Source: the human T2T-CHM13v2.0 reference genome, Homo sapiens | NCBI RefSeq assembly: GCF_009914755.1 | Contig: NC_060930.1 | Length of the DNA stretch: 64,000 nt | Strand: one strand, 5' to 3' | In this document: positions 1,131 through 52,179 of the stretch, one piece after another | Layout of the letters: every line of letters starts with the position of its first letter | Numbering within the stretch: position 1 is the first letter of the stretch | Notes under the pieces: model-generated | Told to the model about the DNA's origin: nothing | Database searches by the model: none | Seen by the model: only the letters and a program-made list of their open reading frames with translations | Position numbers and translations under genes: made by a program

Positions 1131-2155
1131 GAGAGGAGCCAAGATGGCCGAATAGGAACAGCTCCAGTCTACAGCTCCCAGCGTGAGCGACGCAGAAGAC
1201 AGGTGATTTCTGCATTTCCATCTGAGGTACCGGGTTCATCTCACTTGGGAGTGGCAGACAGTGGGCGAAGGTCAGTGGGTGCGCGCACCGTGCGCGAGCC
1301 GAAGCAGGGCGAGGCATTGCCTCACTTGGGAAGCGCAAGGGGTCAGGGAGTTCCCTTTCTGAGTGAAAGAAAGGGGTGACAGACGCACCTGGAAAATCGG
1401 GTCACTCCCACCCGAATACTGTGCTTTTCCGAACGGCTTAAAAAAACGGCGCACCACGAGATTATATCCGGCACGTGGCTCAGAGGGTCCTACCCCCACA
1501 GAGTCTCGCTGATTGCTAGCACAGCAGTCTGAGATCAAACTGCAAGGCGGCAGCGAGGCTGGGGGAGGGGCGCCCGCCATTGCCCAGGCTTGATTAGGTA
1601 AACCAAGCAGCCAAGAAGCTCCAACTGGGTGGAGTTCACCACAGCTCAAGGAGGCCTGCCTGCCTCTGTAGGCTCCACTCTGGGGGCAGGGCACAGACAA
1701 ACAAAAAGACAGCAGTAACCTCTGCAGACTTAAATGTCCCTGCCTGACAGCTTTGAAGAGAGCAGTGGTTCTCCCAGCACGCAGCTGGAGATTTGAGAAT
1801 GGGCAGACTGCCTCCTCAAGTGGGTCCCTGACCCCCAAGCAGCCTAACTGGGAGGCACCCCCGAGCAGGGGCACACTGACACCTCACACAGCCGGGTACT
1901 CCTCTGAGACAAAACTTCAAGAGGAATGATCAGACAGCAGCATTCGCGGATGACGAAAATCCGTGGTTCTGCAGACACCGCTGCAGATACCCAGGCAAAC
2001 AGGGTCTGGAGTGGACCTCTAGCGAACTCCAACAGACCTGCAGCTGAGGGTCCTGTCTGTTAGAAGGAAAACTAACAAACAGAAAGGACATCCACAACAA
2101 AAACGCATCTGTACATCACCATCATCAAAGACCAAAAGTAGATAAAACCACAAAG
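1131..2155 (+). promoter_or_regulatory. L1-A 5'UTR internal sense/antisense promoter
   Basis: YY1 motif caagatggccg at 1140-1150; many CpGs retained against a CpG-poor background. Confidence 0.8.
1272..1580 (-). other. L1 ORF0 variant (antisense ORF, 102 aa, altered C-terminus)
   Basis: MAGAPPPASLPPCSLISDCCASNQRDSVGVGPSEP inside ORF-track entry 1272..1874 matches the primate ORF0 N-terminus. Confidence 0.7.
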
Positions 2156-3172
2156 ATGGGGAAAAAACAGAGCAGAAAAACTGGAAACTCTAAAAAGCAG
2201 AGCGCCTCTCCTCCTCCAAAGGAATGCAGTTCCTCACCAGCAATGGAACAAAGCTAGACGGAGAATGACTTTGACGAGTTGAGACAAGAAGGCTTCAGAC
2301 GATCAAACTACTCCGAGCTACCGGAGGAAACTCAAACCAAAGGCAAAGAAGTTGAAAACTTTGAAACAAATTTAGATGAATGTATAACTAGAATAACCAA
2401 TACAGAGAAGTGCTTAAAGGAGCTGATGGAGCTGAAAGCCAAGACTCGAGAACTACGTGAAGAATGCAGAAGCCTCAGGAGCTGATGTGATCAACTGGAA
2501 GAAAGGGTATCAGTGATGGAAGATGAAATGAATGAAATGAAGCGAGAAGGGAAGTTTAGAGATAAAAGAATAAAAAGAAATGAGCAAAGCCTCCAAGAAA
2601 TATGGGACTATGTGAAAAGACCAAATCTACGTCTGATTGGTGTACCTGAAAGTGACGGGGAGAATGGAACCAAGTTGGAAAACACTCTGCAGGATATTAT
2701 CCAGGAGAACTTCCCCAATCTAGCAAGGCAGGCCAACATTCAGATTCAGGAAATACAGAGAACGCCACAAAGATACTCCTCGAGAAAAACAACTCCAAGA
2801 CACATAATTGTCAGATTCACCAAAGTTGAAATGAAGGAAAAAATGTTAAGGGCAGCCAGAGAGAAAGGTCGGGTTACCCACAAAGGGAAGCCCATCAGAC
2901 TAACAGCTGATCTCTTGGCAGAAACTCTACAAGCCAGAAGACAGTGGGGGCCAATATTCAACATTCTTAAAGAAAAGAATTTTCAACCCAGAATTTCATA
3001 TCCAGCCAAACTAAGCTTCATAAGTGAAGAAGAAATAAAATACTTTACAGACAAGCAAATGCTGAGAGATTTTGTCACCACCAGGCCTGCCATAAAAGAG
3101 CTCCTGAAGGAAGCACTAAACATGGAAAGGAACAACCGGTATCAGCTGCTGCAAAATCATGCCAAAATGTAA
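2156..3172 (+). pseudogene. L1-A ORF1p, disrupted
   Basis: ATG GGG AAA AAA start; in-frame stops near 2255 (TAG) and 2483 (TGA); C-terminal 219 aa open (YVKRPNLRLIGVPE, YPAKLSF). Confidence 0.95.
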
Positions 3173-3235
3173 AGACCATCCAGGCTAGGAAGAAACTGCA
3201 CCAACTAACGAGCAAAATAACCAGCTAACATCATA

Positions 3236-49294: not shown

Positions 49295-49355
49295 TATGAT
49301 GTTAGCTAGTTATTTTTCTCGTTAGTTGATGCAGTTTCTTCCTAGTCTTGATGGT

Positions 49356-50372
49356 CTACATTTTGGCATGATTTTGCAGTGGCTGGTACTGGTCGTTCCT
49401 TTCTATGTTTAGTGCTTCCTTCAGGAGCCCTTTTAGGGGAGGCCTGGTGGTGACAAAATCTCTCAGCATTTGCTTGTCTGTAAAGCATTTTATTTCTCCT
49501 TCACTTATGAAGCTTAGTTTGGCTGGATATGAAATTCTGGGTTGTAAATTCTTTTCTTTAAGAATGTTGAATGTTGGCCCCCACTCTCTTCTGGCTTGCA
49601 GAGTTTCTGCTGAGAGATCCGCTGTTAGTCTGATTGACTTCCCTTTGTGGGTAACCCGACCTTTCTCTCTGGCTGCCCTTAACATTTTTTCCTTCATTTC
49701 AACTTTGGTGAATCTGACAATTATGTGTCTTGGAGTTGCTCTTCTCGAGGAGTATCTTTGTGGCATTCTCTGTATATCCTGAATCTGAATGTTAGCCTGC
49801 CTTGCTAGATTGGGGAAGTTCTCCTGGATAATATCCTGCAGAGTGTTTTCCAACTTGGTTCCATTCTCCCTGTCACTTTCAGGTACACCAATGAGACGTA
49901 GATTTGGTCTTTTCACATAGTCCCATATTTCTTGGAGGCTTTGTTCATTCCTTTTTATTCTTTTTTCTCTAAACTTTCCTTCTTGCTTCATTTTATTCAT
50001 TTCGTCTTCCATCACTGATACCCTTTCTTCCAGTTGATCACATCAGCTCCTGAGGCTTCTGCATTCTTCACGTAGTTCTGGAGCCTTGGCTTTCGGCTCC
50101 GTCAGCTCCTTTAAGGACTTCTCTGCATTGGTTATTCTAGTTATCCATTTGTCTAATTTTTTTTCAAGGTTTCTAACTTCTTTGCCATTGGTTTGAATTT
50201 CCTCCTATAGCTCGGAGTTGTTTGATCTTCTGAAGCCTTCTTCTCTCAACTCGTCAAAGTCATTCTCCATCCAGCTTTGTTCCGTTGCTGGTGAGGAGCT
50301 GTGTTCCTTCGGAGGAGGAGAGGTGATCTGCTTTTTATAGTTTCTAGTTTTTCTGCTCTGTTTTTTCCCCAT
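49356..50372 (-). pseudogene. L1-C ORF1p, disrupted
   Basis: TGA after RSLRS (about 50043); C-terminal 219 aa open. Confidence 0.93.
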
Positions 50373-52179
50373 CTTTGTGGTTTTACCTACTTTTGGTTTT
50401 TGATTATGGTGATGTACAGATGGGTTTTGGTGTGGATGTCCTTTCTGTTTGTTAGTTTTCCTTCTAACAGACAGGACCCTCAGCTGCAGGTCTGTTGGAG
50501 TTTGCTAGAGGTCCACTCCAGACGCTTTTTGCCTGGGTGTCAGCAGCAGTGACTGCAGAACAGTGGTGGCTGTAGAATCTCGGATTTTGGTGACCCACAA
50601 GTGCTGCTGCCTGATAGTTCCTCTGGAAGTTTTGTCTCAGAGGAGTACCCGGCCGTGTGAGTTGTCATTCTGCCCCTACTGGGGGGTGCCTCCCAGTTAG
50701 GCTGCTCGGGGGTCAGGGACCCACTTGAGGAGGCAGTCTGCCCATTCTCAGATCTCCAGCTGCATGCTGGGAGAACCACTACTCGCTTTAAAGCTGTCAG
50801 GCAGGGACATTTAAGTCTGCAGAGGTTACTGCTGTCTTTTTGTTTGTCTGTGCCCTGCCCCCAGAGGTGGAGCCTATAGAGGCAGGCAGGCCTCCTTGAG
50901 CTGTGGTGGGCTCCACCCAGTTCTAGCTTCCCAGCTGCTTTGTTTACCTAATCAAGCCTGGGCAATGGCAGGCGCCCTTCCCCCAGCCTGGCTGCTGCCT
51001 TGCAGTTTGATCTCAGACTGCTGTGCTAGCAATCAGTGAGACTCCGTAGGGGTAGGACCCTCCGAGCCATGTGTGGAATATAATCACCTGGTGTGCCGTT
51101 TTTTAAGCACCTTGGAAAAGCGCCCTATTATGGTGGGAGTGACCTGATTTTCCAGGTGTCTGTCACCCCTTTCTTTGACTAGGAAAGGGAACTCCCTGAA
51201 CCCTTGCACTTCCCAAGTGAGGCAATGCCTCACCCTGCTTTGGCTGGCGCAAGGTACACTGCACCCACTGTCCTGCACCCACTGTCTGGCACTCCCTAGT
51301 GAGATGAACCCGGTACCTCAGATGGAAATGCAGAAATCACCCATCTTCTGTGTCGCTCATGCTGGGAGCTGTAGACAGGAGCTGTTCCTATTCAGCCATC
51401 TTGGCTCCACCCAAGTCTTTTTTTAAAGGCATTGCATCTCTAAAATCTAAACTATACTTCACTCATAGGTTGATACAAAAAATTTATGTGTAAAGTGTAA
51501 GTCTTCGTTCACTTAAAAAAAACATGTTAATAAAAATGTCCCTGACTTCACCTACATAATTAATAATATACGATATTAGCCCTTAGTAGATATGATGGTT
51601 TGGTTTTGAAAACACATTTCTCCCAGAATCAGCTCAACACTTCTTGATCATCAACAATGTTCTTGACCATGTATGAAATGATATGTGAACACAGGCTTTT
51701 TTTCTTCAGAATAATCATGCTCCAATTTTGCCTAATGGTTCTCATCATATTACTCAAAGCTACTGAACCACTTTCTTCATCTAAACTACCTAATGCATTA
51801 GTAAGATAGCAAGAAAATGAGCTGAGCATGCAGCGAATAATGAACTTGGACCTAAAGATGGAATAAATATTTTAGCATATAAGCATATTGCTGTAAAGCC
51901 TTTGATTAAGAGATAATTCTTAATAAATGTCCCAGGTCCCCAAATGTCATAAACAGCATCTATACATGTTGGTATCCACATTTTTACATCCCTTTATTCT
52001 TAAATCATTCATCTATAGATTCCTTCAACATTATTTTTTTGAAACCCTGTATTACCAAATTAAAAATTACTCCCTGGTCCTCGTTTCAATATAGTCTGTA
52101 CAATTATGTTTACTCTGGGGATTGTGACAATAGTATTTACTTCCTACCTACTAAAACACCCTCCTTTATGATTCTGTGA

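What the first reader, a model, noticed from the sequence alone, without database searches (positions are those of the whole stretch)
1131..51412. Three neighbouring L1s share substitutions in a non-tree-like patchwork: possible local gene-conversion network
Seen: the three elements have unrelated flanks, and A and B have their own TSDs, so they are separate insertions. A and B share ORF2 variants that C lacks: tgaaaTtattcc (4711/31561), cacatAaaaa (4893/31742), caaccctAcatg (QPYM; 5061/31910), aaaaGctggaa (5170/32020), gTtggaggc (KVGG; 5831/32681), aaaTcaat (PKS; 6231/33081). They also share gctgCagaggTtgtgg (CCRGC; 6621/33471), which lies in the part C has lost. B and C share variants that A lacks: gggaagTcAatcag (GKSI; 29735/49632), actctGcaag (29774/49597), ccaaCattca (GPTF; 29801/49569), ctaactGtcc (LTVL; 30408/48961), tggaGgaacatt (KWRN; 32477/46892). 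All three have cctacCcc (1494/28466/51051) and actGccattc. A and C share the long 5'UTR that B lacks. These groupings conflict, so no single tree explains them. From recalled human L1PA consensus most are non-consensus and non-CpG. Inference: ectopic gene conversion among nearby copies; alternatives are read mixing during assembly or polishing, or a lineage-specific recombinant subfamily.
Basis: partly seen in the sequence, partly recalled or inferred. Interest (0 to 1): 0.8.

Follow-up and report, generated by a model that had tools for sequence, protein, structure and literature searches.

The report
Neighbouring L1 copies exchanged sequence patches
Three dead L1 retrotransposons that inserted separately within 50 kb on human chromosome 6 share combinations of mutations found almost nowhere else in the genome, which is best explained by the copies having copied short patches of DNA from one another after insertion.

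Summary
A has a 15-bp target-site duplication (TSD) and B a 13-bp low-complexity one. The flanks are unrelated.

Most differences are ordinary. Of 389 two-versus-one sites, 324 are private changes in the odd copy.

A minority is not ordinary. Whole-genome counts:
- A+B, 5068A+5174G: 2 of 3004 copies, A and B only.
- A+B, 5832T+6233T: 3 copies.
- A+B, 4716T+4898A: 4 copies.
- B+C, 2891T+2893A: 3 copies, against 4106 copies that carry the site.
- B+C, 2929G+2955C: 3 copies.

The two extra copies I fetched are older and unrelated.

As a control, the A+C pair 3718T+3814C occurs in 639 copies and is a plain subfamily marker. B's missing 5'UTR piece is the known ~129-bp L1PA3 deletion.

Best reading (0.75): non-allelic gene conversion between neighbours. 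One event is a patch of at least 76 bp, probably from C to B. The other is patchy A–B sharing over about 1.9 kb of ORF2.

This is a new example of a known process. Dating and the exclusion of an assembly artefact need ape orthologues and long reads.

The parts
1128..7294 (+). L1 copy A: full length, long 5'UTR, ORFs broken
   Evidence: Alignment to B and C. Longest ORF overlapping it on the + strand is 579 aa.
1113..1127 (+). A, 5' target-site duplication (15 bp)
   Evidence: Exact 15-bp match to 7295-7309.
7295..7309 (+). A, 3' target-site duplication, after the A-rich tail
28100..34184 (+). L1 copy B: full length, short 5'UTR (lacks about 128 bp = A 1903-2025), ORFs broken
   Evidence: BLAST A 1133-1902 to B 28104-28880 and A 2026-7285 to B 28876-34135. 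Longest ORF 368 aa. 13-bp A-rich TSD candidate at 28087-28099 and 34185-34197.
46009..51412 (-). L1 copy C: long 5'UTR, 3'-truncated at the equivalent of A 6545, no poly(A), ORFs broken
   Evidence: BLAST A 1125-6545 to 51418-46009 at 93.5%. Junction sequence. Longest ORF 549 aa.
1903..2025 (+). 5'UTR segment present in A (and in C at about 50530-50653) but absent from B. It lies where the known L1PA3 129-bp deletion (ZNF93 escape) lies.
   Evidence: Passages of PMC7110667. Identity with the published deletion is inferred from position and size; it was not aligned to a reference.
29730..29805 (+). B side of the B-C shared patch (A 2880-2955, end of ORF1). It carries 2891T, 2893A, 2929G and 2955C, plus C-type states at 2880 and 2926.
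49573..49648 (-). C side of the B-C shared patch (probable donor)
4716..6631 (+). A side of the A-B sharing zone in ORF2. Shared rare states: 4716T, 4898A, 5068A, 5174G, 5602T, 5832T, 6233T, 6625C, 6631T.
31565..33481 (+). B side of the A-B sharing zone
   Evidence: Same calls. Offsets.
5503..5503 (+). 5503G, shared by A, B (32353) and C (47027). Present in 73 copies genome-wide.

Best explanation
A, B and C are three separate, long-dead L1PA insertions of slightly different age and type. B is the short-5'UTR type. A and C are the long-5'UTR type, and C is the most decayed.

After insertion, homologous repair between these neighbouring copies (non-allelic gene conversion) copied short stretches from one copy into another. 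That carried the donor's private mutations with it.

Two exchanges are visible:
1. A patch at the end of ORF1, at least A 2880-2955 (76 bp) and at most about 2870-3018. B and C share it, and it probably went from C into B. B and C are inverted repeats with 11.8 kb between them.
2. A zone in the 3' half of ORF2 (A 4716-6631). Here A and B share nine or ten rare substitutions, interleaved with copy-specific ones. A and B are direct repeats, about 26.9 kb start to start. The pattern fits either one old long tract followed by further decay, or a long heteroduplex repaired in patches, or several small events.

Shown: the insertions are independent, the shared haplotypes are rare genome-wide, and the shared sites are spatially concentrated.

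Inferred: the mechanism, the direction and the timing.
For: Independent insertions:
- A has a 15-bp TSD and B a 13-bp A-rich TSD.
- No flank homology.

Genome-wide rarity, by exact pattern counts over the 3.1-Gb assembly:
- 5068A+5174G: A and B only. That is 2 of 3004 copies that match when both sites are left free. All 100 of the first 100 listed copies show the common base at 5068.
- 5832T+6233T: 3 copies. The third (L041) is 92.5% identical and carries the common state at 4716 and 5174 and a different base at 5602.
- 4716T+4898A: 4 copies.
- 6625C+6631T: 28 hits to the 16-mer. I fetched all 26 outside the window. Only one (L014) lies at the homologous site of a copy at least 93% like A. The rest are old L1 (87-89% identity) or not L1.
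- 2891T+2893A: 3 copies, against 4106 copies matching the surrounding 35-mer, and 0 of the first 100 listed. The third copy (L042) is 85% identical and lacks 2929G and 2955C.
- 2929G+2955C: 3 copies.

Positive control: the A+C pair 3718T+3814C gives 639 copies.

Dispersed relatives of B and C (5 copies from the first sample, 6 B-like, 6 C-like):
- 2891T, 2893A and 2929G in 0 of 17.
- 3566G in 0 of 16.
- 2955C in 2 of 17, both of them C-like.

Direction of the B-C patch:
- At 2880, B has the state seen in 6 of 6 C-like copies. The other state is in 5 of 6 B-like copies.
- At 2926, the same split: B matches 6 of 6 C-like copies, against 5 of 6 B-like copies.

Spatial concentration: 9 of 12 A+B shared derived sites lie in A 4700-6650, where only 61 of 205 derived events lie (hypergeometric p = 0.001). 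None lies in 6632-7290.

Locality: rare-variant carriers form neighbour pairs far above expectation. For 5503G there are 6 pairs within 50 kb against about 0.08-0.14 expected. For 5934T there are 3 pairs against about 0.01.
Against: - No long identical tract. The longest runs of concordant sites are not unusual for any pair (permutation p 0.50-1.0 by number of sites, 0.10-1.0 by length).
- Within the A-B zone, A and B still differ at many private sites. They also differ at sites that vary between the dispersed copies (5701, 6244, 6249). One of these is only 11-16 bp from the shared 6233T. A single clean tract therefore does not fit.
- The drop in private non-CpG density of A and B in the 3' zone is not significantly larger than C's. 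A goes from 1.12% to 0.60%, B from 1.72% to 0.98%, C from 2.02% to 1.63% (Fisher p = 0.27).
- The direction C to B rests on two markers that are each polymorphic among B-like copies (1 of 6 each).
- B and C differ inside the patch at the CpG 2916/2917.
- 5832T alone is in 197 copies, so single sites recur. Each rare haplotype has 0-2 unrelated carriers elsewhere.
- Only one assembly was examined. Neither reads nor orthologues were available.
Confidence: 0.75

Rival explanations
1. Shared rare source lineage. The 3' halves of A and B (and the ORF1 patch of B and C) were inherited at insertion from a minor, recombinant L1 source lineage, not exchanged afterwards.
For: Sub-subfamily structure exists. 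The dispersed copies L034 (chr9) and L037 (chr5) share 4 doubleton sites over A 4720-6540, as many as A-B in that small sample. L014 on chr8 shares 6625C+6631T with A and B on a young background. Dispersed copies show all four combinations at 5701 x 6249 (read by eye from the table), so mosaic sources occur.
Against: No other member of such a lineage exists. The multi-site haplotypes occur in A and B, or in B and C, plus 0-2 copies; the two I fetched are unrelated. L014 lacks 5602T, 5832T and 6233T. A and B differ in 5'UTR type and at common subfamily markers in the 5' 3.5 kb. The idea therefore needs two different recombinant sources, each leaving one copy, both landing within 27 kb. B and C differ in how close their nearest dispersed relatives are (about 96% for B, about 93% for C), yet they share only a patch of about 76-150 bp. 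A-B sharing stops at 6631, although every retrotransposed copy includes the 3' end.
Confidence: 0.1
2. A third donor. Both members of a pair were converted by another L1 that is now deleted, or absent from this haplotype, rather than by each other.
For: 6625C+6631T is the state carried by old L1 copies elsewhere (L002, L013, L021, L022, L025), so these two bases may first have come from an older element. C has lost its 3' end, which shows the locus has been rearranged.
Against: No other copy in the assembly carries the haplotypes. The window holds no other L1 ORF1 or mid-ORF2 sequence of this age, and no second copy of the 6625 motif within 3 mismatches apart from an Alu-like hit.
Confidence: 0.07
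3. Coincidence: parallel mutation at hypermutable sites.
For: Many B+C shared states are parallel CpG decay. Single variants recur: 5832T in 197 copies, 5503G in 73, 5934T in 21. My own estimate is that one or two shared non-CpG hits per pair are expected by chance. It comes from the private densities, assuming independent and uniform mutation.
Against: Nine or ten non-CpG shared sites for A-B and four within 65 bp for B-C, including transversions. Two-site haplotypes stand at 2 of 3004 and 3 against 4106. Both carriers lie within 27 kb of each other.
Confidence: 0.03
4. Assembly or polishing artefact: reads or corrections from one copy were applied to another.
For: Not testable here, because only one assembly was available. 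Repeats are where such errors occur.
Against: The shared bases sit among copy-specific differences tens of bases away. For example, B-private 2869 and C-private 2983 flank the B-C patch. The copies differ by 4-7% overall, which long accurate reads resolve easily. The shared sites are isolated single bases, not collapsed stretches. That this assembly's polishing was conservative is my recollection, not a call.
Confidence: 0.03

Closest known systems
Non-allelic gene conversion between neighbouring Alu elements (Aleshin & Zhi 2010, as described in passages of PMC6598467 and PMC8230782)
   Same: Independent retroelement insertions that lie close together share non-diagnostic mutations more than dispersed copies do. 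The inference rests on rare, non-subfamily variants. The rate falls with distance.
   Different: Here the elements are 6-kb L1s rather than 300-bp Alus. The distances are 12-40 kb, whereas the passages I read give about 10 kb as the range of the Alu signal. This is a single locus worked out site by site, not a genome-wide statistic. I did not read the original 2010 paper.
L1-L1 gene conversion and recombinant L1s in human genomes (Frith & Khan 2018, PMC5829575, passages: 'conversion between L1PA3 LINEs', Fig. 4S; bioRxiv 10.64898/2026.05.14.725010, passages: 35 of 2,267 full-length consensus sequences removed as recombinant calls)
   Same: Sequence is transferred between L1PA copies by homologous repair, which gives mosaic elements.
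   Different: Those cases are recent, clean tracts seen as read-versus-reference differences, or breakpoints between lineages. Here the tracts are short or patchy, probably old, and involve three neighbours with two different partners for B.
L1PA3 5'UTR 129-bp deletion, ZNF93 escape (PMC7110667, passages)
   Same: B lacks about 128 bp of 5'UTR that A and C keep, at the position expected for that deletion.
   Different: This is a subfamily difference inherited at insertion, not evidence of exchange.

Membership tests
Non-allelic (ectopic) gene conversion between dispersed repeats | Donor and acceptor are separate paralogous loci, not copies made by one duplication | tested here: met
   A has its own 15-bp TSD and B has a 13-bp candidate. 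No repeat of 200 nt or more links the flanks.
Non-allelic (ectopic) gene conversion between dispersed repeats | Shared derived variants that subfamily membership does not explain | tested here: met
   Haplotype counts of 2-4 genome-wide for A+B and 3 for B+C, against 639 for a true subfamily pair and 3004-4106 copies carrying the sites.
Non-allelic (ectopic) gene conversion between dispersed repeats | A contiguous tract bounded by unshared sites | tested here: inconclusive
   B-C: the patch A 2880-2955 is bounded by 2869 and by 2983/3019, but B and C differ at the CpG 2916/2917 inside it. A-B: shared sites are interleaved with private ones. The run test is not significant, while zone enrichment has p = 0.001.
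Non-allelic (ectopic) gene conversion between dispersed repeats | The pre-conversion state of the acceptor is seen in an orthologue or another haplotype | not testable with these tools
   No ape or second human assembly was available.
Segmental duplication of an L1-containing block | Homology continues into the flanks | tested here: not met
   Homology stops at the element ends.
Minor L1 sub-subfamily (shared source gene) | The diagnostic haplotype recurs in several dispersed copies | tested here: not met
   Not met for the A+B and B+C haplotypes. Met for A+C 3718T+3814C, with 639 copies, which is therefore ordinary.
L1PA3-type elements with or without the 129-bp 5'UTR deletion | Presence or absence of the ~129-bp 5'UTR segment | tested here: met
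   B lacks A 1903-2025, with a 5-bp overlap in the alignment. All 39 dispersed matches to B 28700-29700 align across the junction without a gap.
L1PA3-type elements with or without the 129-bp 5'UTR deletion | Assignment to a named Dfam/RepeatMasker subfamily by consensus | not testable with these tools
   No L1PA consensus library was available. The names L1PA3 and L1PA4 are used here only as approximate labels.

The most novel reading that the evidence does not exclude
Exchange between neighbouring L1 copies is not a curiosity of this locus. It may be a general, measurable process reaching at least about 40 kb, further than the ~10 kb reported for Alus. If so, a real share of the 'private' mutations used to date and classify old L1s would be imported from neighbours.

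The hint is that, in the two complete lists of rare-variant carriers, neighbour pairs within 50 kb are 40- to 250-fold over expectation. They also occur at other loci: chr3 36.05/36.09 Mb, chr9 117.94/117.96 Mb, chr11 14.81/14.83 Mb and chr5 121.916/121.929 Mb.

Only the chr3 pair could be compared cleanly, and its 3' flanks are unrelated.
Probability: 0.4. Interest if true: 0.55.

Novelty: new member of a known kind. Interest (0 to 1): 0.42.

Why it matters
Ages and subfamily assignments of L1 copies assume that each copy decays on its own. Exchange between neighbours breaks that assumption. It can make copies look younger, older or mosaic.

The locus also shows that copies 12-40 kb apart have physically recombined. 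The same contacts could delete the about 21 kb between A and B (direct repeats) or invert the about 12 kb between B and C (inverted repeats).

Complete assemblies now allow the rate, tract length, distance dependence and orientation dependence of such exchange to be measured for 6-kb repeats. In the papers my searches returned, this has mainly been done for Alus.

As a single locus it is a clean worked example, not a new principle.

Tried and rejected
1. Treating the raw two-versus-one groupings as a tree conflict. Rejected: three sequences have one unrooted tree, and 324 of 389 such sites are private changes.

2. A run-length test in the style of GENECONV on the three-way alignment. It gave no significant fragment for any pair. 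The test is blind to old or patchy tracts.

3. A 'clock reset' test, asking whether private densities of A and B are lower inside the A-B zone. The trend is there but is not significant against C (p = 0.27).

4. My first guess was that the B+C states in ORF1 were simply older-subfamily consensus states. Rejected.

5. My first guess was that all A+B states were rare. 2916T is not. A's 2908T+2916T haplotype is common (10 of the first 100 listed copies, my count from the table), and the site is a CpG.

This left only 5-18 dispersed copies for polarising, and only 5 for much of the 5' half.

7. A search for a local third donor in the window found none.

8. The flank check of four other neighbour pairs was only partly informative. 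Three of the eight fetched pieces did not contain the L1 3' end where predicted.

10. No literature search returned a genome-wide study of neighbouring L1-L1 conversion (listings and selected passages only). That does not show that none exists.

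
Full report
**What is there**

The window (human T2T chr6:96,038,001-96,102,000) holds three L1 elements:
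- A: + strand, about 1128-7294.
- B: + strand, about 28100-34184.
- C: - strand, 46009-51412.

Repeat finding and BLAST show 88-96% identity between them. No other repeat of 200 nt or more links their surroundings.

- A is flanked by an exact 15-bp target-site duplication at 1113-1127 and 7295-7309.
- B has a 13-bp A-rich candidate duplication.
- C ends abruptly at 46009 without a poly(A) tail.
- All three have broken reading frames. The longest ORFs overlapping them are 579, 368 and 549 aa.
- B lacks about 128 bp of 5'UTR (A 1903-2025) that A and C keep.

The size and place of that gap fit the 129-bp deletion that arose within L1PA3 and removed the ZNF93 binding site (passages of PMC7110667). 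I did not align B to a reference for that deletion.

All 14 quoted motifs are present at or within a few bases of the stated coordinates.

A three-way MAFFT alignment over A 1131-6545 has 402 variable sites: AB|C 169, AC|B 121, BC|A 99, and 13 where all three differ.

Three sequences have only one unrooted tree, so these groupings cannot conflict by themselves. Any private mutation in one copy makes the other two 'share' a base. To polarise the sites I needed other L1 copies.

**Sampling the genome**

The whole assembly could be searched. I fetched 62 pieces from it.
- 18 dispersed copies at least 90% like A from the first batch. Only 5 of them cover most of the 5' half.
- A 1.1-kb slice (A 2600-3700) from 6 copies that are the best matches to B's 5' region.
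- The same slice from 6 copies that are the best matches to C's 5' region.

Polarised in this way:
- 324 of 389 two-versus-one sites are private changes in the odd copy.
- At 38 sites the pair shares a state absent from the dispersed copies: AB 9, AC 11, BC 18.
- 26 sites are polymorphic.
- 1 site has no data.

130 of the 402 sites are CpG-associated. Several of the B+C cases are clearly parallel CpG decay, for example 1431, 1549, 2657, 3138 and 3148.

**Genome-wide counts of the remaining, non-CpG shared variants**

A+B:
- 5068A+5174G occurs in A and B only. With both sites left free, the same gapped pattern matches 3004 copies.
- 5832T+6233T occurs in 3 copies.
- 4716T+4898A occurs in 4 copies.
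- The 16-mer with 6625C+6631T has 28 hits. Of the 26 outside the window, only L014 (chr8) lies at the homologous site of a young copy. The others are old L1s of 87-89% identity, or not L1 at all.

B+C:
- The 23-mer with 2891T+2893A occurs 3 times. The surrounding 35-mer with five free sites matches 4106 copies, and none of the first 100 listed has that state.
- The 40-mer with 2929G+2955C occurs 3 times.

The extra carriers I fetched are unrelated:
- L041 (chr4) is 92.5% like A, B and C alike. It carries the common state at 4716 and 5174 and a different base at 5602.
- L042 (chr4) is 85% identical and shares only 2891T and 2893A.

Among 17 dispersed copies, including B's and C's closest relatives:
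- 2891T, 2893A and 2929G are absent (0 of 17).
- 3566G is absent (0 of 16).
- 2955C is in 2 of 17, both C-like.

Single sites do recur: 5832T is in 197 copies.

**Control**

The A+C pair 3718T+3814C, scored by the same gapped-pattern method, is in 639 copies. The method therefore reports true subfamily markers as common.

It follows that A and C simply carry the widespread 639-copy states there, while B matches the sampled short-5'UTR copies.

What remains for A-C:
- 5934T, in 21 copies.
- 5503G, which all three copies carry and 73 copies have genome-wide.

**Anatomy of the sharing**

B-C:
- The four rare bases lie within 65 bp at the end of ORF1.
- In the same patch, B has the state of all 6 C-like copies at 2880 and at 2926. 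At each of these sites 5 of 6 B-like copies have the other state.
- 2955C is otherwise seen only in C-like copies.
- This points to transfer from C into B, over at least A 2880-2955.
- The patch is limited by B-private sites at 2869 and 3019 and a C-private site at 2983.
- Inside it, B and C differ at one CpG: 2916/2917 reads TG in B and CA in C. These are either two later decays or an unconverted gap.

A-B:
- 9 of the 12 shared derived sites lie in A 4700-6650, where only 61 of 205 derived events lie (p = 0.001).
- None lies between 6632 and 7290.
- They are interleaved with private sites of A and of B, and with three sites that vary between the dispersed copies, at which A and B differ (5701, 6244, 6249).
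- A run-length test finds no unusually long identical fragment.
- The lower private density of A and B in this zone is not significant against C.
- The A-B exchange is therefore either old and overprinted, or patchy, or multiple. I cannot tell which.

**Mechanism and rivals**

The sharing is local, pairwise and segmental. B has two different partners. Non-allelic gene conversion between neighbouring copies explains all of this (confidence 0.75).

- Shared rare source lineage (0.1). It would need lineages with no other surviving members, two different recombinant sources for A and B, and chance landing within 27 kb. It cannot explain a patch of about 76-150 bp shared by elements whose nearest dispersed relatives are about 96% identical for B and about 93% for C.
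- A lost third donor (0.07). This is still conversion.
- Coincidence (0.03). It fails on the haplotype counts.
- Assembly or polishing error (0.03). It is unlikely because the shared bases sit among copy-specific differences in copies 4-7% apart. It was not tested.

**Known context**

Exchange between neighbouring Alus within about 10 kb is described in passages of PMC6598467 and PMC8230782, which cite Aleshin & Zhi 2010.

Conversion between L1PA3 LINEs and recombinant young L1s have been reported in passages of PMC5829575 and of bioRxiv 10.64898/2026.05.14.725010.

Four literature searches returned no genome-wide study of neighbouring L1-L1 conversion. I read listings and passages only. The locus is thus a new, well-resolved example of a known process.

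**A wider hint**

In the complete carrier lists, neighbour pairs within 50 kb are far over expectation.
- 5503G: 6 pairs against about 0.08-0.14 expected.
- 5934T: 3 pairs against about 0.01 expected.
- Five of these nine pairs lie at other loci.

For the chr3 pair the 3' flanks are unrelated. The other three checks were out of register.

**Verdict**

Interest: 0.42.

Noticed in passing
G000 C3:36051334/36087994, C9:117939136/117961502, C11:14810798/14834637 (5503G); C5:121916029/121929240, C11:93340339/93343719 (5934T): Other neighbouring L1 pairs, 3-37 kb apart, share the same rare single variants. Neighbour pairs within 50 kb are 40-250 times more frequent than expected. The 3' flanks of the chr3 pair are unrelated. 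The other flank checks were out of register.
   Followed up: partly
G000 C18:32268, 86284, 140330, 194238: Four copies with 5934T sit at about 54-kb spacing near a chromosome end. They look like a tandem segmental repeat that contains an L1.
   Followed up: no
window 6621-6636 and 33471-33486; loci L002, L013, L021, L022, L025, L014: The A+B state 6625C+6631T is the state carried by much older L1 copies elsewhere (87-89% identity to A). One young copy on chr8 (L014) carries it too. It may first have entered by conversion from an old element.
   Followed up: partly
G000 C6:95973102-95974106 (about 65 kb upstream of the window): A fourth L1 just outside the window is one of the two best genome-wide matches (95%) to A's 5'UTR and ORF1 start. 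It does not appear in any of the rare-haplotype hit lists.
   Followed up: no
window 46009 (3' end of C, - strand): C stops at the equivalent of A 6545 with no poly(A) tail. About 750 bp of its 3' end were therefore lost after insertion.
   Followed up: no
window 48xxx (A 3184 equivalent) and A 3184: At A 3184, copy C has the base of all 6 B-like copies, whereas 4 of 5 C-like copies have the other base. Copy A has the C-like base. This could be a reciprocal exchange or a chance single-site change.
   Followed up: no
window 1497-2095 and 50349-51677: According to the annotation supplied with the finding, RefSeq 'enhancer' features cover the long 5'UTRs of A and C. No such feature covers B, which lacks the ~128-bp segment.
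   Followed up: no
loci L027-L040, sites A 5701 and 6249: The dispersed copies show all four combinations of the two states. Mosaicism or recurrent change at subfamily-level sites is therefore common outside this locus too (read by eye from the table).
   Followed up: no
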